Positions 1,057-7,556 of a stretch of DNA of 10,789 nucleotides are shown here, in pieces. Made by a program: the position numbers and the translations under genes. Under the pieces are notes generated by a model, which saw only the letters and a program-made list of their open reading frames with translations, ran no database searches and was not told the origin of the DNA. How positions within the stretch are numbered: the stretch's first letter is position 1; each line of letters starts with the position of its first letter. The stretch lies in IMG/VR virus record IMGVR_UViG_2917849834_000008, positions 1 to 10,789 of that record; one strand, 5' to 3'. This DNA comes from a virus (taxonomy: Duplodnaviria; Heunggongvirae; Uroviricota; Caudoviricetes).

Positions 1057-2090
1057 TGAGCAAGAAAAAAGGGAAAACACCGCAACCTGCGACAAAAACA
1101 ATGACCGCCAGCGCCCCGAAAATGGAGGCATTCACCTTTGGTGAGCCGGTGCCGGTACTCGACCGCCGTGACATTCTGGATTACGTCGAGTGCATCAGTA
1201 ACGGCAGATGGTATGAGCCACCGGTCAGCTTTACCGGTCTGGCAAAAAGCCTGCGTGCTGCCGTGCATCACAGCTCACCGATTTACGTCAAACGCAATAT
1301 TCTGGCTTCAACGTTTATCCCGCACCCGTGGCTTTCCCAGCAGGATTTCAGCCGCTTTGTGCTGGATTTTCTGGTGTTCGGTAATGCGTTTCTGGAAAAG
1401 CGTTACAGCACCACCGGTAAGGTCATCAGACTGGAAACCTCACCGGCAAAATATACCCGCCGTGGTGTGGAAGAGGATGTTTACTGGTGGGTGCCGTCCT
1501 TCAACGAGCCGACAGCCTTCGCGCCCGGCTCCGTGTTTCACCTGCTGGAGCCGGATATTAATCAGGAGCTGTACGGCCTGCCGGAATATCTCAGCGCCCT
1601 TAACTCTGCCTGGCTGAATGAGTCGGCCACGTTGTTCCGCCGAAAGTATTACGAAAACGGCGCTCATGCCGGATATATCATGTATATCACCGACGCATTG
1701 CAGGATCGCGATTACATTGATTCACTTCGCGAAAACATGGCCAGGTCGAAAGGCCGCAATAACTTTAATAATCTGTTTCTCTATGCCCCACAGGGAAAGC
1801 CAGACGGCATCAAAATTATCCCGCTCAGTGAAGTGGCGACAAAGGACGATTTTTTTAATATCAAAAAATCCAGCGCCGCTGACCTGCTGGACGCGCACCG
1901 CATCCCCTTTCAGTTGATGGGCGGCAAGCCGGAGAACGTCGGGTCGCTGGGTGATATTGAGAAAGTGGCTAAGGTCTTTGTCCGCAATGAGCTTATCCCG
2001 TTACAGGACAGGATTCGCGAGATAAATGGTTGGCTCGGTCAGGAGGTCATCCGCTTTAAAAACTACTCACTGGACACTGACAACGGCTGA
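1056..2090 (+). CDS. Q: Portal (capsid vertex) protein, P2 gpQ-like
   Basis: 344 aa ORF, the size I recall for P2 gpQ. Start ATG overlaps the P stop by 1 nt. Followed by a strong terminator and, about 170 bp downstream, the cos site, as in P2. Typical high-GC enterobacterial coding composition. Confidence 0.85.
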   Translation: MSKKKGKTPQPATKTMTASAPKMEAFTFGEPVPVLDRRDILDYVECISNGRWYEPPVSFTGLAKSLRAAVHHSSPIYVKRNILASTFIPHPWLSQQDFSRFVLDFLVFGNAFLEKRYSTTGKVIRLETSPAKYTRRGVEEDVYWWVPSFNEPTAFAPGSVFHLLEPDINQELYGLPEYLSALNSAWLNESATLFRRKYYENGAHAGYIMYITDALQDRDYIDSLRENMARSKGRNNFNNLFLYAPQGKPDGIKIIPLSEVATKDDFFNIKKSSAADLLDAHRIPFQLMGGKPENVGSLGDIEKVAKVFVRNELIPLQDRIREINGWLGQEVIRFKNYSLDTDNG

Positions 2091-2095
2091 ACATC

Positions 2096-2117
2096 GCCGC
2101 CTGCGGGCGGCTTTTTT
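2096..2117 (+). terminator. Rho-independent terminator downstream of Q
   Basis: Perfect 6-bp GC stem gccgcc (2096-2101) / ggcggc (2106-2111) with 4-nt loop tgcg, followed immediately by TTTTTT (2112-2117), 6 nt after the Q stop codon. Confidence 0.7.
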
Positions 2118-2259
2118 ACACCCCGCCATCACGCCCTCACACGCTCACCACAGCACAAAACAGCCCGCAGACACACCAACGCCCCGGCGAACAATCTAAA
2201 CGCCATCACGACGTGCTCAGACGCTGAAAAAATAAAATCAGCACCACCGCCAGCGCGCA

Positions 2260-2278
2260 GTGCTTTCCCCGCCTCGCC
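2260..2278. other. cos: Phage cohesive-end site (cos), P2-type 19-nt sequence, present in joined form
   Basis: gtgctttccccgcctcgcc at 2260-2278 is the exact reverse complement of GGCGAGGCGGGGAAAGCAC, which I recall as the 19-nt P2 cohesive end. It sits between the Q 3' end and the old/tin-equivalent region, as expected for a prophage or circular form. Confidence 0.6.
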
Positions 2279-2565
2279 CGCCCGCTTCGTGAGGCGGTTT
2301 TAATGCACTTGCATGAATGGCCTAAAGTACGCCAGTTCTGACACTGCAAAGTTAGAAAATGCCTGACAGGCACATGCAAAATGATGCATCAAATGAATTC
2401 ATACTGAAATAACCCCCCAACCACATAGCTAAGCATCCACATCTTTACATCTAACTCACTAAATTCTCTTGAATAAATCAAAAAGTTAGGTTAGATCTCT
2501 GTCGTTGAGGAAGGCAACCTCGAACACTTAAGGCTAAATATAAAAAGAATAAAAAGAGGGATAAA

Positions 2566-2853
2566 ATGAAATTAAAACTCAAAAACGTAACAAGCTATCA
2601 TAAAGAATATTTTACTGAGTTAGATTTATCCAAAAAAATAAACATATTGTATGGACAAAATGGTTGTGGAAAATCTACCATATCAAATTATTTTTACAAT
2701 CCTAAAGACACCGCCTATAAGGAATGTGTATGCGAACCCATCGATAATTATCGAACTCTAGTCTACAACTCAAAATATATAGAAGATAATTTTTATAATG
2801 CAAAAGAGCAAAAAGGTATATTTACCCTCAGTCAAAAAAAATGCAGAAATTGA
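2566..2853 (+). CDS. N-terminal fragment (Walker A / P-loop) of an AAA_13-like ABC/SMC-type ATPase, RloC-like; frame broken at an A8 tract
   Basis: Good SD (aagaggg, 2554-2560) 5 nt before ATG 2566. Translation contains the P-loop GQNGCGKST. Only 95 aa, then stop at 2851-2853; the downstream ORF in the -1 frame carries the rest of the ATPase motifs. Very AT-rich, unlike the flanking phage genes. Confidence 0.6.
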   Translation: MKLKLKNVTSYHKEYFTELDLSKKINILYGQNGCGKSTISNYFYNPKDTAYKECVCEPIDNYRTLVYNSKYIEDNFYNAKEQKGIFTLSQKKCRN

Positions 2854-4775
2854 AAAAAATACTATCTGAAAAAGAAGAGCTAAACAAATCACTAGCACAT
2901 CAGCATAAAGAAAAAAAAGAATTTATCGAAAAACTTCATGAAGCGAAAAACAAAAAAGAGCAAGAGTGCATAAATTCCATATGGAATAAGACCAAAGACA
3001 TAAGAAGTTCAGAATTAAAACAATTAATGAAAGGTCAAATAGGAAGCAAAGCCACTTTCTATTACCATCTAAAAAAGTATACTCCACAAACTGATATTGA
3101 TATAAAATCATTAATACAATCTTATAGCAAACTTCTCGAGTTTAAAGGAAAAGAAATACCTCTGATAACTCCTTATAAAGGATATGTTTTATCTGAAGAA
3201 ACTCAAAAAACATTATCCACACCAATTATTGACTCTAGCAACAGCTATTTATCTGAAGCAATAAAAGAGCTACAAAATATTGATTGGATTAAACAAGGCA
3301 AAGAGCAATATTTAAATGGAGAAATTTGTCCATTTTGCCAAAGGGACACAATAGATGATAATTTTATTAAAGCCATTGAATCTATCTTTGATGAAACATA
3401 CTCAAGAAAAGTAGATCAAATACAACAAATAAAACTATCTTATGATAATGCCATTAAAAATCATCATGAAGAAATAAAGAGTAACATTTTATCATGTGAG
3501 GTGATAAACCAAGACGAAAAAGATAAAAGTCTTTCATATGTTAAGGCGTTAGAAACTATTGCAGAAAAAAACATTAAATTATTGGATAATAAAATAGAAA
3601 ATCCATCTATAAGCATTGTGCTGGAGTTTGAAAAGTCGATAGAGGAAAAACTATTAGAAGATATAGAACAATACAACAATAAAATTAACGAGTTCAATGA
3701 CAAAGTAAAAAGATTTAATAATAGCGAAATAGATATTCGCGAAAAGATGTGGGCAGCAATCAGAGACTTATGTAGCGCGGAATTTGAAATACTATCAGAC
3801 TGCGAAAGAAACTTTCAAGAAAAATATGAAAACGCTGCATCCTTCATGCAGGAAATAAAAAGAAAAGAAGAGATCAACACAAATGAAATCAATGAACTAA
3901 GAAATAAAACATCAAGTGTAGATGCAACAATAGATGCAATAAACTCACGACTTAAATTTCTTGGCATCTCTGGTTTTAGCATTGATAAACACGCCGAACT
4001 CAAAGATAAGTATATAATATCCCGCGATGGAAACAATAGAAAACAAGATGTATATCGGTCATTAAGCGAAGGTGAAAAAACATTAATAACGTTTCTATAT
4101 TTTTTAGAATGTTGCAAGGGTAAAACAAATGAAAATGATAATGATATGCGTGATAAACTCATAGTTATAGATGATCCTATATCAAGTCTATCTCAAAACT
4201 ATGTTTTCGACATAGCATCCATGATCCATCATGACATAATTGAAAAAGGCATTTCATCAAAAATAATAATCCTCACCCATAATCTTTATTTCTTCCATGA
4301 GTTAATAAAACTCGCCTCTAAAAAAGGAATAAACTTTAAACGGGACTACTTTCTTGGCAGAATAAACAAAAATGAATTTAGCACCATTAGTGCTATAGAT
4401 AAAAAAAGTGTGCAAAATGAATACCAATCCCTTTGGCAAGTATTAAAAGATGCAAAAGAGAAAAAAATCAACAAAATAATAATCCCAAATATTATGAGAA
4501 ATATACTTGAGTATTACTTTGCATTTGTTCATAGAACTGACGCATTAGAGGAAAAGCTTACTGAATTAACAAATGATGAAAATAACAGCCATTTCCGTGC
4601 CTTTTACAGATATATAAACAGAGGCTCTCACTCCGACGCAATAAATATAACAGACATGGGCGATATTGAACCTGAGAAATACTTAGAACTCTTGCACAAA
4701 ATATTCAGAATGACTGGTGATGAGAAACATTACTTAACAATGATGGGTGAAGAAGAGGTAAATGTTACCGCTTAG
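2841..4775 (+). CDS. Main part of RloC-like AAA_13 ATPase: coiled coil with CxxC zinc hook, ABC signature-like and Walker B motifs, C-terminal putative anticodon-nuclease-like domain
   Basis: 644 aa ORF. Lys/Glu-rich predicted coiled-coil region (aa ~1-400) with CPFC at aa 163-166 (nt 3327-3338). LSEGEK (aa 408-413), DKLIVIDDP (aa 438-446) and ILTHN (aa 477-481) match ABC-type signature / Walker B / H-loop. C-terminal ~150 aa contain MRNILEYYFAFVHR...SHFRAFYRY. This frame is open from 2799 and overlaps the upstream ORF across the A8 tract 2834-2841. Confidence 0.7.
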   Translation: MQKLKKILSEKEELNKSLAHQHKEKKEFIEKLHEAKNKKEQECINSIWNKTKDIRSSELKQLMKGQIGSKATFYYHLKKYTPQTDIDIKSLIQSYSKLLEFKGKEIPLITPYKGYVLSEETQKTLSTPIIDSSNSYLSEAIKELQNIDWIKQGKEQYLNGEICPFCQRDTIDDNFIKAIESIFDETYSRKVDQIQQIKLSYDNAIKNHHEEIKSNILSCEVINQDEKDKSLSYVKALETIAEKNIKLLDNKIENPSISIVLEFEKSIEEKLLEDIEQYNNKINEFNDKVKRFNNSEIDIREKMWAAIRDLCSAEFEILSDCERNFQEKYENAASFMQEIKRKEEINTNEINELRNKTSSVDATIDAINSRLKFLGISGFSIDKHAELKDKYIISRDGNNRKQDVYRSLSEGEKTLITFLYFLECCKGKTNENDNDMRDKLIVIDDPISSLSQNYVFDIASMIHHDIIEKGISSKIIILTHNLYFFHELIKLASKKGINFKRDYFLGRINKNEFSTISAIDKKSVQNEYQSLWQVLKDAKEKKINKIIIPNIMRNILEYYFAFVHRTDALEEKLTELTNDENNSHFRAFYRYINRGSHSDAINITDMGDIEPEKYLELLHKIFRMTGDEKHYLTMMGEEEVNVTA

Positions 4776-5002
4776 GCCGCATATTACCGATTCGGGTAAG
4801 AACGACGGTGCTTACGCACCGTCTCCCAGCGCCCAAAGCGGTAGCGGTTGTACTGTCGTACATTCACTAACCTTAACATGAGATTATCTCCATGCCGGCA
4901 CCATTGTTGCCAATGGCAGCCTTTATACCCTTTGTATAAAGCTAATACTAAGAGCATTGCTAGGTAGATTTCCCAAGCGGTAACGTGGGTATTCTAAGAC
5001 AA

Positions 5003-7291
5003 TTACTTAAAAAGATCAAAGCCACTAAAAAACTGCTTCCACTCACCACTTATTGGATATATAAACTTTCGTCCGTCAAACTTTACCGTCGCGCCACGCG
5101 CCAGCGCCTCAAGCTCCCATCGCTGCGGCCTGATACCGTTCTGAGCAAGGTCAACGCGGATACGGGTAATTTGCATTCTTTCCGACCGGGTCAGTCTGGC
5201 CGATGGTGCAATTTCATGTGGTTTTAACGGGCTTCCGTTTCTTTGCTGACGGTTTGGCGTTCTCAGGTCGTGTTTTAATGCGCCCCTGAGCGCCCTCACG
5301 ACCTCCGGTTCACTCCATTCAATAACACCGTCATCAACCAGATTAAGCACTGCTGCGGCGTGCTCAGAAGGTGTGGGAGCCGATAACGAAGTATTACCGC
5401 CGGTGAGCTTTCCACAGTTATTGACAGGACTCCGAGGCGCGGCGATGCCGCTTTTTAAAGTCAAAGGCTCAACGACCGGAACTTTCGGCACAATGCGCCA
5501 GTCCGTCGTTCTGGTGATATGAATATGACGCGCGCCGAGATGCGGCGCGTAAATGCCGACCACTCTCTCGACTTCTTCCTCGTACTCGTTAACGTCATCC
5601 GACGTGCTACGGGCAACCCTGACAGTCTGACAATCGCGCGGGACATTTGCCCCGCCCTGCGCGCTGATATACAACGCAAAATCACCACTGTCTGCGGCGG
5701 CGCGTGCAGCCTCGACGCGTTCGTCAAACTCATCAGCAATGCTGACGCCGCGAGGCAATTTGCGTAGTTCACGGTAAGCCCCCATTGTCGGCAGACCAAC
5801 CGTTTTAAATTGCGGAATGCGCCACGTTGACGCCCATGCGGTAACAGCCGCAGCAGTATCTTTCAGCGGCCTGCCGGTATCGTTATCGAGCTGACCATCC
5901 AGTGCATAGCCATCGATGTTTTTTGAGATGTATTTCGCGATATATCCCGCAGCACCGCCCCGGTTAAGGTGTTTTGCCTGAAAACGGTTTCGCGCGGCTC
6001 CTCTTTCGTCGCCATCCTCTTTGAGCGCATAGCGACGCATGATTTCGATAATCTGGTTACGCTGGCGTGGATTACAAAAAAGCATCATATGCCAGTGCGG
6101 CGTTCCGTCGTGGTGTGGCTCGACGACACGCAAACCGTAGACCTGTAAATCATTATCCTTGAATGCCGTGCGCATCAGGCTCCAGATATGGCAGAGATAA
6201 CGCTGCGCATCCTTTGGATTAAATGCCTCATCGTTCCAGCCGTGATTTAGCTGGACGGTTTTACTTTCGCCTTTTCCGACCTGACGTGTCGGGTGATACT
6301 TTGACGGCGTGGTCAGCGTGATAAACATCCCCACATCACCCTCTGCGGCGGCGTAACGCTCAATACCGGCAATGGTGTTCATCAGCTCCATCCGGCGAAT
6401 TTCAGGATTAGAAATACTGCCCATCACCTTACTGATAAGGTCGATGCGCTCGCCGGTTTCCCTGTTTTCAAGGTCACACGATTTAAGAAATTCCAGATTT
6501 GCCTGGCGGCGCGCACGCACATCACGAATGGCGTGTTTACTGGCATAAGGAGAACGGTCTTTATTGACCTCCCCGACAGCTATCAGTAACGCTTCATGCC
6601 AGCGCATACGCTGGCCTTTAAGCTGATGAGTCCACCACTCATCGTTAAACAGACGGGCAATTGCAGAATATGCCTGCCTCGTGGTCATCTGTCCTTTACG
6701 GTATTTTTTCCAGTAGAGAGGGGAAATATTGAAAGCACGTGCAGCGCCAGCAACATGACCATAGAGGTGAGCCTGCGCCTCATCCGTAAACAGCGATTCT
6801 TTTTCGCCATGCGCATCCCCCCAGGCATCGCTGAGTTCCTCATACATCATGAAAAGCTGCGATGAGATACGGGCAGCAAACTTTTTCAGCTCCTTGTCAT
6901 TCATTCCCGGCAGGCGCGCATAGTGGTCACGCTCTGCCAGAAACAGTAACGACGCGTCGGTGTTCATTTCATGGCGCTGATTCACACGCTCAATGCGCGG
7001 CCATAAACGACGCTGAAAAGTGGATGTGAGGAAATAAAACCCGTGCACCGGGCTTTTATTGCGCCGGATGTAGTCATAGCGTGAAGTAAACAGCGAACGC
7101 AAAAAGTAAGGCAGGCGGTTAATCGTGGATAAAACACCTTGCACCTGACGCATCTCGTCACGTGTAAGGGGTCTTTCGCGCCCGACGGCCTCGCGTGGCG
7201 CGTTCCATGCATAAGCACCGGTAAACGTCTTACCGGTGCCTGCGGCAAATGCTGACGGAGGGACAAAACGCCCGGAGGCTTTAACGGCCAT
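5003..7291 (-). CDS. A: Replication initiation protein, P2 gpA-like rolling-circle initiator
   Basis: Large minus-strand ORF (track 5003..7333, 776 aa with a TTG start at 7333). The first ATG at 7289-7291 starts MAVKASGRF, which I recall as the P2 gpA N-terminus, and gives ~762 aa. Contains the HxH-like segment PHHDGTPHWHMMLF. Located between the cargo and the B/cox region as in P2. Confidence 0.85.
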   Translation of the reverse strand: MAVKASGRFVPPSAFAAGTGKTFTGAYAWNAPREAVGRERPLTRDEMRQVQGVLSTINRLPYFLRSLFTSRYDYIRRNKSPVHGFYFLTSTFQRRLWPRIERVNQRHEMNTDASLLFLAERDHYARLPGMNDKELKKFAARISSQLFMMYEELSDAWGDAHGEKESLFTDEAQAHLYGHVAGAARAFNISPLYWKKYRKGQMTTRQAYSAIARLFNDEWWTHQLKGQRMRWHEALLIAVGEVNKDRSPYASKHAIRDVRARRQANLEFLKSCDLENRETGERIDLISKVMGSISNPEIRRMELMNTIAGIERYAAAEGDVGMFITLTTPSKYHPTRQVGKGESKTVQLNHGWNDEAFNPKDAQRYLCHIWSLMRTAFKDNDLQVYGLRVVEPHHDGTPHWHMMLFCNPRQRNQIIEIMRRYALKEDGDERGAARNRFQAKHLNRGGAAGYIAKYISKNIDGYALDGQLDNDTGRPLKDTAAAVTAWASTWRIPQFKTVGLPTMGAYRELRKLPRGVSIADEFDERVEAARAAADSGDFALYISAQGGANVPRDCQTVRVARSTSDDVNEYEEEVERVVGIYAPHLGARHIHITRTTDWRIVPKVPVVEPLTLKSGIAAPRSPVNNCGKLTGGNTSLSAPTPSEHAAAVLNLVDDGVIEWSEPEVVRALRGALKHDLRTPNRQQRNGSPLKPHEIAPSARLTRSERMQITRIRVDLAQNGIRPQRWELEALARGATVKFDGRKFIYPISGEWKQFFSGFDLFK
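5421..5440 (-). other. ori: Putative origin of replication (gpA nick site) inside the A coding region
   Basis: ttgacaggactccgaggcgc on the + strand is the reverse complement of GCGCCTCGGAGTCCTGTCAA, which I recall as the P2 ori nick region. The P2 ori is known to lie within gene A. The match is exact but the reference sequence is from memory. Confidence 0.45.
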
Positions 7292-7556
7292 GTGAGCCAA
7301 AAGCCTCTGAACAACGCTTGCTGAGTTGCTCAACCTGCGCGTTTAAATCAGCAAAAGATTTTGCGCTTCCGGTCAGAATATCGTGATGCATCATGCCGGA
7401 AACGAGCTGGCTTAATTTCGGGTAATAACCAACCACCGCCAGCCATTCCTGACCGGCGTTTTTACCGCTTTCCGCTCTCTTTTTCTCGTGGAGAATAAAC
7501 TGAAAGCTGTCACTGGTAACGACATAACGTTCGCCAATGTCAATACGAATACTCAT
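7281..7556 (-). CDS. Hypothetical protein; by position corresponds to the small ORFs between B and A in P2 (orf83-like)
   Basis: 91 aa ORF with ATG start; its stop overlaps the A start region and its start overlaps the upstream ORF stop by 4 nt (ATGA). Composition matches neighbouring phage genes. Confidence 0.55.
   Translation of the reverse strand: MSIRIDIGERYVVTSDSFQFILHEKKRAESGKNAGQEWLAVVGYYPKLSQLVSGMMHHDILTGSAKSFADLNAQVEQLSKRCSEAFGSHGR

What the first reader, a model, noticed from the sequence alone, without database searches (positions are those of the whole stretch)
3300..3350. Rad50/RloC-style CxxC zinc hook inside the predicted coiled coil
The motif EICPFCQRD (Cys codons at 3327-3329 and 3336-3338) sits roughly mid-way through the long Lys/Glu-rich, heptad-like region separating the Walker A and Walker B halves. 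A single CxxC at the apex of an antiparallel coiled coil is the zinc-hook arrangement of Rad50 and has been described for RloC. It implies dimerisation through Zn and possibly DNA-damage or DNA-end sensing coupled to the effector domain.
Basis: inference. Interest (0 to 1): 0.5.

Follow-up and report, generated by a model that had tools for sequence, protein, structure and literature searches.

The report
RloC tRNase "zinc hook" Cys pair
The CPFC motif is real and is the invariant "zinc hook" signature of RloC, a known anti-phage tRNA-cutting enzyme carried here by a P2-like prophage, so the finding is correct in kind but already described, and the gene copy in this window is broken by two frameshifts.

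Summary
One CxxC in one sequence is not remarkable: 14% of shuffles have one. Its conservation is: both Cys are present in 237 of 237 homologues down to about 23% identity, as invariant as the catalytic residues.

The gene (2566-4775) is an RloC-type anticodon nuclease. It has a Rad50/SMC-like ABC ATPase head, a roughly 355-residue helical insert, and a C-terminal HEPN tRNase with the R-x3-E-x39-SH triad. It occupies the cargo slot of a P2-like E. coli prophage. The 2008 RloC paper already lists such an E. coli prophage copy.

The geometry is only partly Rad50-like:
- Covariation shows that the two arms pair antiparallel.
- The roughly 110 residues before the Cys pair are not heptad-like.
- The AlphaFold model puts the Cys pair in a lower-confidence 15-residue loop.
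- By inference, not from coordinates, that loop sits in a conserved cap at the far end of a helical-bundle stalk.

No solved structure exists, and zinc binding and hook-mediated dimerisation remain unproven even for the studied RloC. In this window two single-A insertions split the gene. Verdict: a known feature of low to moderate interest.

The parts
2566..2853 (+). N-terminal fragment of rloC (95-aa ORF) carrying Walker A (GQNGCGKST, 2653-2679). It ends at a premature TGA caused by a frameshift.
   Evidence: (AAA_13 profile positions 7-91; AAA_23; SMC_N)
2834..2860 (+). Frameshift site. Two homopolymer runs each carry one extra A compared with intact alleles: A8 at 2834-2841 (A7 in intact copies) and A7 at 2854-2860 (A6 in intact copies).
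   Evidence: The split gene is on record in NCBI GCA_004745155.1, and the contig was seen in 4 samples.
2841..4775 (+). Main rloC ORF (644 aa): the helical insert, the ABC signature, Walker B, the H-loop and the C-terminal HEPN-type anticodon nuclease domain.
   Evidence: AAA_13 profile positions 94-712, E 1.8e-82; PDC-S06 E 1e-251; PrrC on residues 435-717
2859..2990 (+). Outgoing arm helix (residues 98-141 of a helix that spans 93-141).
   Evidence: AlphaFold secondary structure; heptad score above the 99th percentile of shuffles; antiparallel covariation with 403-448, i+j about 543, 7.3 sd
3096..3200 (+). Second, non-heptad segment of the N-arm (residues 177-211). It runs alongside helix 356-394.
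   Evidence: Covariation pairs 196-381 (z 15.8), 199-374 and 185-379; smoothed antiparallel peaks at i+j of about 567-576
3228..3407 (+). Conserved apical island (residues 221-280): N-x-D-W-x3-G ... CPFCQ ... F-D-x2-Y. It is the only strongly conserved stretch of the insert apart from the N-P-S loop.
3312..3356 (+). Cys loop (residues 249-263, LNGEICPFCQRDTID). It is non-helical in both models. L249 and I262 covary, which closes the loop.
   Evidence: pLDDT about 65-77; pair 249-262, z 7.9
3327..3338 (+). CPFC, the two invariant cysteines C254 and C257.
   Evidence: 237 of 237; 8 of 8 distant genomic relatives: CPFC, CPYC, CEFC, CAFC
3393..3599 (+). Helical hairpin 276-309 / 315-344 that follows the Cys module. 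It is part of the four-helix-bundle-like distal stalk.
3588..3617 (+). Conserved K-x3-P-S loop (K342, P346 invariant among 80 homologues; S347 in 90% or more). It covaries with residues 202-239 next to the Cys module.
   Evidence: pairs 239-347, 219-349, 202-349, 214-349
3633..3911 (+). Returning arm: helices 356-401 and 403-448, with single-residue breaks at 382 and 402.
4062..4178 (+). ABC signature LSEGE (4062-4076) and Walker B LIVIDDP (4158-4178). The H-loop His571 is further downstream, at 4278-4280.
4497..4631 (+). Anticodon-nuclease catalytic triad: R644 (4497-4499), E648 (4509-4511), S687-H688 (H at 4629-4631). The pattern is R-x3-E-x39-H.
   Evidence: R in 237 of 237, E in 229 of 237, H in 235 of 237; the motif is defined in PMC2610378

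Best explanation
The window holds an rloC gene, a single-protein abortive-infection and stress tRNase, sitting in the variable cargo slot of a P2-like E. coli prophage. 

The protein has three parts. The first is a Rad50/SMC-like ABC ATPase head. The second is a helical protrusion of about 355 residues inserted between Walker A and the signature motif. The third is a C-terminal HEPN-type anticodon nuclease. 

The CPFC pair lies in a conserved cap, made of residues about 221-280 together with the N-P-S loop at 341-350. I infer that this cap sits at the far end of the protrusion. 

The most likely mechanism follows the Geobacillus RloC studied in the laboratory. The Cys module holds the nuclease silent, probably by binding a metal ion shared between two chains. 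DNA ends bound at the ATPase heads trigger ATP hydrolysis and release the tRNase. The tRNase then cuts tRNA anticodon loops and stops translation. 

Shown here: the motif, its invariance, family membership, the antiparallel arm pairing and the prophage context. Taken from the literature on a homologue: Cys-to-Gly changes hyperactivate and uncouple the nuclease, and the ATPase depends on DNA. Inferred only: the distal position of the cap, zinc binding, dimerisation through the Cys pair, and that this allele behaves like the Geobacillus enzyme. The copy in this window is probably inactive or very weakly expressed, because two 1-base insertions split it. 

The confidence of 0.6 is for this whole account. 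That the motif is the RloC family's 'zinc hook' Cys pair is near certain (about 0.95). That it works as a metal bridge between chains is about 0.5.
For: - Family hits: Pfam AAA_13 across both ORFs; PADLOC PDC-S06 at E 1e-251, and PrrC on the C-terminal half.
- Intact allele: a 735-aa E. coli protein is 99% identical.
- Conservation: the Cys pair and the R-x3-E-x39-SH triad are invariant or nearly so in 237 homologues and in 8 distant genomic relatives.
- Metal ligands: the only other Cys or His conserved at 60% or more are C54 (217 of 237, Ser in 16), C516 (148 of 237, replaced by Ile, Val or Leu) and H571, H688 and H721. None lies in the insert. That leaves two strict ligands per chain.
- Fold: the full-length AlphaFold model matches Rad50, SMC, AriA, LmuB and PtuA heads.
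- Arm pairing: covariation pairs 93-141 with 403-448 and 177-211 with 356-394, both antiparallel.
- Conservation profile: a conserved island at 221-280 and 341-350 sits in otherwise poorly conserved arms.
- Literature on the family: RloC is defined by ABC motifs, a CXXC and the triad. Table S1 lists E. coli APEC O1 YP_852004 (738 aa), flanked by phage replication and capsid genes. A CPFCQ-type hook appears in the Fig. S1 alignment.
- Literature on the Cys pair: C288G and C291G hyperactivate GkaRloC and uncouple it from its DNA-dependent ATPase.
- Literature on the trigger: double-strand-break inducers activate RloC in vivo.
- Literature on prophage copies: the HEPN survey names a PrrC/RloC/APECO1_4465 family 'also found in prophages'.
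- Context: the same slot holds cdtABC in a syntenic P2-like phage. Enterobacter phage ENT4 carries a 60%-identical homologue.
Against: - No coordinates were available, so neither the distance of the Cys loop from the head nor its exposure at the tip could be measured.
- The Cys loop has the lowest model confidence within the insert (pLDDT about 65-77).
- The N-terminal flank is not coiled coil.
- The hook module has no significant sequence match to any solved Rad50 hook. The best match is a sub-threshold hit to a RecR zinc-finger knuckle, E 0.065.
- Arm lengths do not co-vary positively (r = -0.25), although their range is too narrow for a fair test.
- The authors of the RloC work state that zinc coordination by the hook remains uncertain, and they withdrew their earlier zinc result.
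- This allele is only distantly related to GkaRloC, and no anti-phage test of it was found in the papers searched.
Confidence: 0.6

Rival explanations
1. The Cys pair is a regulatory latch within one assembly, not a Rad50-type bridge between assemblies. The conserved cap (Cys loop plus N-P-S loop) would dock, directly or through a metal ion, onto the head or the HEPN nuclease domain. Docking could occur after the stalk bends, or onto the partner chain of the same ATPase dimer. This would hold the nuclease off until DNA binding and ATP hydrolysis straighten the arms.
For: - Cys-to-Gly changes switch the nuclease on and make it independent of ATP and DNA. That is what loss of a latch predicts.
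- Zinc also inhibits the hook mutant and PrrC, which points to a metal-sensitive site in the nuclease half.
- His721 is conserved in 235 of 237 sequences and Cys54 in 217 of 237. Both lie outside the insert and have no assigned role.
- The cap is a conserved surface of about 70 residues, far more than two Cys at a hairpin tip.
- The authors' own model already includes an intramolecular hook state that silences the nuclease.
Against: - Covariation gives no reliable contact between the cap and the head or nuclease. Such pairs have z below about 6 and no consistent register.
- The returning arm is predicted as a nearly continuous 93-residue helix with only single-residue breaks. This would put the cap about 13 nm from the head unless the stalk bends.
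- Cys54 is replaced by Ser in 16 sequences.
Confidence: 0.2
2. The CPFC is a purely structural zinc knuckle, or a non-metal turn, that stabilises the fold of the apical module within one chain. It would have no role in joining chains. The mutant phenotypes would then reflect local unfolding of the module.
For: - CPxC followed by a polar residue is a generic zinc-knuckle signature. The closest solved sequence match is a RecR zinc-finger knuckle, not Rad50, and it is sub-threshold (E 0.065).
- The motif is embedded among invariant aromatic and hydrophobic residues (W240, F256, F274, Y278) typical of a small folded unit.
- L249 and I262 covary across the loop.
- The mutant GkaRloC protein was obtained in poorer yield and purity.
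Against: - A one-chain zinc knuckle normally needs four ligands. No third or fourth conserved Cys or His exists anywhere in the insert.
- The residue six positions before the first Cys is His in the Geobacillus-type hooks but Tyr or Phe here.
- The mutants gain regulated activity instead of losing function.
Confidence: 0.15
3. In this particular window the motif has no function at all, because the gene is a pseudogene. This concerns the state of this copy and is compatible with any of the mechanisms above for intact alleles.
For: - Two 1-base insertions in adjacent A-runs put a stop after codon 95 and shift the rest into another frame.
- The same split is on record in an NCBI assembly, and the contig was seen in 4 samples.
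- RloC is toxic when active, so inactivating mutations are expected.
Against: - The downstream 644-codon frame is fully open and 99% identical to intact alleles, so any inactivation is recent.
- The first run reads A-AAA-AAA in the upstream frame. A -1 slip there, or one extra A added during transcription, would give a full-length protein that differs from the intact allele only over residues 92-97.
- Homopolymer miscalls in the assembly cannot be excluded.
Confidence: 0.55

Closest known systems
RloC anticodon nuclease (Geobacillus kaustophilus GkaRloC, Acinetobacter RloC; COG4694; Davidov & Kaufmann 2008, Klaiman et al. 2012 and 2013)
   Same: The domain order is the same: ABC ATPase head, long helical insert with one conserved C-x-F-C, then a C-terminal nuclease with R-x3-E-x36-52-(S)H. 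The size class is the same (735 aa here against 804 aa). The gene stands alone, with no linked restriction system. A CPFCQ-type hook is already in the 2008 supplementary alignment, and an E. coli prophage copy of 738 aa is in its Table S1.
   Different: This is a different subfamily. The hook reads Y-x5-CPFCQ here, whereas Geobacillus-type hooks read H-x5-6-C-x-F-C-G/N. This allele has not been tested for tRNase or anti-phage activity. It sits in the P2 cargo slot. The copy in the window is frameshifted.
Rad50 / SbcC / T4 gp46 zinc hook
   Same: An ABC ATPase head split by a long antiparallel helical insert. The only conserved island in that insert holds a single C-P-x-C. The full-length model matches Rad50 structures best (7zr1, 9q9h, 5da9).
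PrrC anticodon nuclease
   Same: Same ABC ATPase class and same nuclease triad. The PADLOC PrrC model matches residues 435-717.
   Different: PrrC lacks the helical insert and the CxxC, is about half the size, and is always embedded in a type I restriction locus that silences it.
Other SMC-like ABC ATPase defence proteins (Lamassu LmuB, PARIS AriA, Septu/retron PtuA, P2 Old)
   Same: ABC ATPase sensor coupled to a nuclease effector, carried in defence hotspots. P2 Old occupies this same prophage slot. Structural matches to the head are weak (Foldseek E 6e-4 to 1e-2).
   Different: They use different effectors (Cap4, Toprim or HNH DNases or tRNases on separate domains or chains). None has a conserved CxxC in the insert.

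Membership tests
RloC (as defined by Davidov & Kaufmann 2008: ABC ATPase motifs + CXXC + ACNase triad) | ABC ATPase motifs: Walker A, signature, Walker B/D-loop and the linchpin His | tested here: met
   GQNGCGKST, LSEGE, LIVIDDP and H571 are all invariant or nearly invariant in 237 homologues. In this window, Walker A lies in a separate ORF because of the frameshifts.
RloC (as defined by Davidov & Kaufmann 2008: ABC ATPase motifs + CXXC + ACNase triad) | A single conserved CXXC inside a largely helical insert that splits the ATPase domain | tested here: met
   C254-P-F-C257 is present in 237 of 237 sequences. The insert spans residues 93-448 and is largely helical in the AlphaFold model.
RloC (as defined by Davidov & Kaufmann 2008: ABC ATPase motifs + CXXC + ACNase triad) | C-terminal triad Arg-X3-Glu-X36-52-His, with Ser often preceding His | tested here: met
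   R644-x3-E648-x39-S687-H688, with R in 237 of 237, E in 229 of 237 and H in 235 of 237.
RloC (as defined by Davidov & Kaufmann 2008: ABC ATPase motifs + CXXC + ACNase triad) | [quoted passage not shown] | not testable with these tools
   This is a biochemical property, known only for GkaRloC and Acinetobacter RloC.
Rad50-type zinc hook | CxxC located at the apex of a two-stranded antiparallel coiled coil | tested here: inconclusive
   The arms pair antiparallel, and the Cys loop follows the point where the paired arms end. However, the N-flank is not heptad-like. The loop lies in a conserved cap next to a four-helix-bundle-like stalk. No coordinates were available to measure its position.
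Rad50-type zinc hook | Two chains share one Zn2+ through four Cys, giving hook-mediated dimerisation | not testable with these tools
   Only two strictly conserved ligands exist per chain, which is compatible with such a site. Zinc coordination is unproven even for GkaRloC.
Rad50-type zinc hook | Sequence or fold similarity to solved hook structures | tested here: not met
HEPN RNase superfamily (PrrC/RloC/APECO1_4465 family of Anantharaman et al. 2013) | R-x4-6-H motif in an all-helical C-terminal domain fused to an ABC ATPase; this family is also found in prophages | tested here: met
   The protein has R681-x6-H688, with R in 154 of 237 and H in 235 of 237. The C-terminal domain is helical. 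The prophage context is shown.

The most novel reading that the evidence does not exclude
RloC's so-called zinc hook is not a Rad50-like bridge. Instead, the Cys loop and the N-P-S loop form a conserved cap of about 70 residues on a four-helix-bundle stalk. This cap acts as an autoinhibitory latch or ligand sensor that contacts the head or the HEPN nuclease of the same assembly, possibly through a metal shared with His721 or the catalytic His688. Under this reading the accepted Rad50 analogy for a family with more than 9,000 cluster representatives would be structurally wrong.
Probability: 0.15. Interest if true: 0.6.

Novelty: already known. Interest (0 to 1): 0.25.

Why it matters
RloC is a widespread single-protein defence. 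The profile search found 9,268 cluster representatives at E of 0.001 or better. It links sensing of DNA damage or DNA ends to shutting down tRNA, and no structure of it has been solved. The Cys pair is the only genetically validated regulatory element in its sensor half.

For this window, the practical value is annotation. An 'AAA family ATPase' in the P2 cargo slot is in fact an RloC-type anticodon nuclease, and this copy is disrupted.

The modest new point is that the hook region looks like a conserved cap on a helical-bundle stalk, not like a Rad50-style hairpin. This is worth keeping in mind when the family is studied structurally.

Tried and rejected
- **Intramolecular four-Cys site with C54/C56.** Rejected. 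C56 is conserved only in the closest clade, and C54 is Ser in 16 of 237 sequences.
- **Compensating arm lengths as a test for an apex.** Uninformative. Both arms vary by only 3-5 residues, and r = -0.25.
- **First covariation runs.** The next was dominated by gap-gap signals. Only the run without gap-rich columns gave sensible head contacts and arm pairing. Pairs with z below about 6 were treated as noise, so contacts of the 276-344 hairpin with the head or with helix 403-448 are not claimed.
- **Sequence search of the whole protein against solved structures.** No hit.
- **Search with the hook module alone.** Only a sub-threshold RecR knuckle.
- **Fold searches of the distal half.** Generic helical bundles only.
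- **AlphaFold-database fold library.** Not available.
- **Literature searches.** Searches for a solved RloC structure, for tests of PDC-S06, and for RloC in the P2-hotspot paper found nothing relevant.
- **Model coordinates.** These are not exposed by the tools, so the position of the Cys loop could not be measured directly.
Full report
**1. The observation**

The + strand at 3320-3347 reads agaaatttgtccattttgccaaagggac. In the frame of the long ORF 2841-4775, positions 3318-3347 give G-E-I-C-P-F-C-Q-R-D, with TGT at 3327-3329 and TGC at 3336-3338. The coordinates and the motif are therefore correct. No ORF of 60 aa or more on the opposite strand covers the site. It is the only CxxC in the protein.

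Taken alone this is weak evidence. In 20,000 shuffles of the 735-residue protein, which has 11 Cys, 14% contained at least one CxxC. The motif becomes meaningful through conservation, described in section 3.

**2. The gene and its setting**

The window is part of a P2-like E. coli prophage. It contains:
- the terminase large subunit (82-1056);
- the portal (1056-2090);
- replication protein A (5003-7333, minus strand);
- an integrase (from 9779).

The gene that holds the motif lies between the portal and gene A. Syntenic P2-like phages share the flanks at 96-98% identity but differ in this slot. One carries cdtABC there. Others carry DUF4209, paraMORC3 with Dcm, a Fic-type VbhT, or DUF4238 proteins. 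This is the variable cargo slot, where P2 itself carries old and tin (my own knowledge of P2). P2-like phages are known to hold hotspots of anti-phage systems (PMC9122126).

The gene is a single cargo gene. Pfam AAA_13 covers it from end to end. The PADLOC candidate family PDC-S06 matches at E 1e-251. The PrrC model matches residues 435-717.

**3. Conservation of the Cys pair**

A first search returned 86 homologues, including an intact 735-aa E. coli protein (P0001) that is 99% identical. In an alignment of 80 full-length homologues spanning 25-93% identity, the following are invariant:
- around the motif: W240, G244, C254, P255, C257, Q258 and F274;
- the ATPase motifs;
- R644 and E648.

A profile search of 1.84 billion cluster representatives found 9,268 relatives at E of 0.001 or better. 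I merged the best 150 of these, the first set and eight proteins from distant genomes into a 237-sequence alignment. The distant genomes were Flavobacteriaceae, Sphingomonas, Collinsella, Arthrobacter, Saccharibacteria and others. Conservation in that alignment is shown below.

| Residue | Present in (of 237) |
|---|---|
| C254 | 237 |
| C257 | 237 |
| W240 | 236 |
| P255 | 235 |
| F256 | 233 |
| Q258 | 227 |

This equals the conservation of the Walker A Lys, the signature Ser and the catalytic Arg and His.

The other Cys or His conserved at 60% or more are:
- C54 (217 of 237, Ser in 16);
- C516 (148 of 237, replaced by Ile, Val or Leu);
- the H-loop H571;
- the catalytic H688;
- H721.

None of these lies in the insert. 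Each chain therefore offers two strict metal ligands in this region. This fits a site completed by another chain and argues against an ordinary four-ligand zinc finger.

**4. Family membership**

Davidov and Kaufmann (2008, PMC2610378) defined RloC by three features: the ABC ATPase motifs, a CXXC in a helical insert, and the triad Arg-X3-Glu-X36-52-His with Ser often before the His. The protein here has all three. Its triad is R644-x3-E648-x39-S687-H688.

Their Table S1 already lists an E. coli APEC O1 protein (YP_852004, 738 aa) whose neighbours are phage replication-initiation and capsid genes. Their supplementary alignment includes a hook reading SRCPFCQNTLDDEF...YFDDTF, the same type as here. 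The HEPN survey of Anantharaman et al. (2013) names a 'PrrC/RloC/APECO1_4465' family fused to ABC ATPases and notes that APECO1_4465 is 'also found in prophages'. Streptococcus prophages annotate distant homologues as 'translation-disabling ACNase'.

The finding is therefore the known RloC 'zinc hook' in a known prophage-borne subfamily.

**5. Is the Cys pair at a coiled-coil apex?**

*Full-length model.* The AlphaFold model of P0001 has mean pLDDT 82 and pTM 0.49. Its elements in the insert, in order, are:
- a long helix, 93-141;
- a run of short helices and loops, 143-248;
- a non-helical stretch, 249-263, that holds the Cys pair (pLDDT about 64-77);
- helices 264-273, 276-309, 315-344, 356-381, 383-401 and 403-448.

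The whole model matches Rad50, SMC, AriA, LmuB and PtuA, with Rad50 best. No solved structure of an RloC or AAA_13 protein was found by sequence.

*Heptad score.* Coordinates are not exposed by the tools, so I used indirect tests. A crude heptad score gave the following:

| Residues | Heptad score relative to shuffles |
|---|---|
| 85-135 | above the 99th percentile |
| 155-270 | below the mean |
| 275-345 | near the 95th percentile |
| 355-395 | above the 99th percentile |
| 410-450 | near the 95th percentile |

The composition agrees. K+E is 45% in 93-141 but 21% in 142-253, and the latter stretch has 9% Pro+Gly and 10% aromatic residues.

*Covariation.* Mean-field covariation on the 237 sequences used a reduced alphabet and dropped gap-rich columns. 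It recovered expected contacts in the ATPase head, which serves as a control. It also gave these signals:
- 93-141 pairs antiparallel with 403-448 (i+j about 543; smoothed score 7.3 sd);
- 177-211 pairs antiparallel with 356-394 (i+j of about 567-576; pair 196-381 has z 15.8);
- the hairpin 276-309 / 315-344 is supported (pairs 292-335 and 283-333);
- residue 218 couples very strongly with 281 (z 17);
- residue 249 couples with 262 across the Cys loop (z 7.9);
- residues 202-239 couple with the loop at 347-349.

*My reading of these results.* This is inference:
1. The two arms run antiparallel from the head out to about residues 211 and 356.
2. The returning arm is nearly continuous helix, with single-residue breaks at 382 and 402. 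Residue 356 and its partners are therefore the far end.
3. Residues 212-355 form the distal part.
4. In it, a conserved cap holds the short helices 212-248, the Cys loop, helix 264-273 and the N-P-S loop at 345-355.
5. The 276-344 hairpin folds back along the stalk to make the bundle.

The conservation profile supports a functional cap. Residues 221-280 and 341-350 are the only conserved islands in otherwise poorly conserved arms.

It is not the tip of a simple two-helix hairpin, and the Rad50 picture should not be taken literally. The arm-length test was uninformative.

**6. Mechanism, and what is actually established**

For the Geobacillus enzyme:
- C288G and C291G strongly increase tRNase activity and toxicity.
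- The C291G protein is active regardless of ATP and DNA. The wild type needs its DNA-dependent ATPase.
- Double-strand-break inducers activate RloC in a natural host.

However, the authors withdrew their earlier claim that zinc inhibits only the wild type. They state that it 'remained uncertain' whether zinc coordination by the hook accounts for silencing. Zinc binding and hook-mediated dimerisation are therefore still hypotheses for the whole family.

My best explanation keeps the literature model: the Cys module silences the nuclease, and DNA ends plus ATP hydrolysis release it. I give the intermolecular metal-bridge version the largest share of probability, because there are only two strict ligands per chain. 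A latch within one assembly and a purely structural knuckle remain open.

**7. State of the gene in this window**

Compared with intact alleles in 12 complete E. coli genomes (99% identity, annotated 'AAA family ATPase'), the window has one extra A in each of two runs. These are A8 at 2834-2841 and A7 at 2854-2860. The first insertion brings a TGA into frame at 2851-2853. The rest of the gene continues in the frame of the ATG at 2841.

The split is on record in NCBI assembly GCA_004745155.1, contig PDIA01000039.1, and that contig was seen in 4 samples. Only seven indels separate 9 kb of the window from a related prophage, so this is not a generally error-ridden sequence. Homopolymer miscalls still cannot be excluded.

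The first run reads A-AAA-AAA in the upstream frame. A -1 slip there, or one added A in the transcript, would yield a full-length protein that differs from the intact allele only at residues 92-97. This is noted as a possibility and was not tested.

**8. Verdict**

The functional implications rest on a homologue and on an unproven metal site. The feature is already described in the literature, including for E. coli prophage copies, so novelty is low. The residual interest has two sources. One is the indication that the hook is part of a larger conserved cap on a helical-bundle stalk in a family with no solved structure. The other is the frameshifted state of this copy.

Noticed in passing
window 2834-2860: Two single-A insertions in adjacent homopolymer runs (A8 against A7, A7 against A6) split rloC into a 95-aa ORF and a 644-aa ORF. 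The first run forms an A-AAA-AAA heptamer in the upstream frame, so a -1 slip or transcriptional slippage could restore a near-normal full-length protein. The split is present in NCBI assembly GCA_004745155.1, and the contig was seen in 4 samples.
   Followed up: partly
window 2091-5002: This is the variable cargo slot of P2-like prophages, between portal gene Q and replication gene A. Syntenic phages carry cdtABC, DUF4209, paraMORC3 with Dcm, a Fic-type VbhT or DUF4238 genes at the same place. At least two rloC alleles occur in E. coli genomes: 12 genomes at 99% identity or more, one at 95-99%, and 62 with a roughly 71%-identical allele.
   Followed up: partly
window 3588-3617 (residues 341-350): A K-x3-P-S loop (K342 and P346 invariant among 80 homologues, S347 in 90% or more) is the only other conserved island in the insert. 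It covaries with residues 202-239 next to the Cys module, which suggests that the two together form one conserved apical surface.
   Followed up: partly
window 4728-4730 (His721) and 2725-2727 (Cys54): His721, in the C-terminal tail of the nuclease domain, is conserved in 235 of 237 sequences. Cys54, in the N-terminal ATPase lobe, is conserved in 217 of 237. Neither has an assigned role in the RloC literature I read.
   Followed up: no
window 1795-1802 (portal gene): Relative to a related prophage (L001) there is a deletion and then an insertion of one base each, 7 bases apart. They compensate each other, so the portal ORF stays open with a short recoded stretch.
   Followed up: no
Literature: PMC3458546, section 13: [quoted passage not shown] They traced it to residual imidazole in the protein fraction. 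Zinc also inhibits the mutant and PrrC, which points to another metal-sensitive site in the nuclease half.
   Followed up: yes
PMC2610378 supplementary Fig. S1, compared with residue 248 (window 3309-3311): Geobacillus-type RloC hooks have a conserved His 6-7 residues before the first Cys (H-x5-6-C-x-F-C). In the subfamily found here that position is Tyr (187 of 237) or Phe (28), and His in only 7. The two subfamilies may therefore build the site differently.
   Followed up: partly
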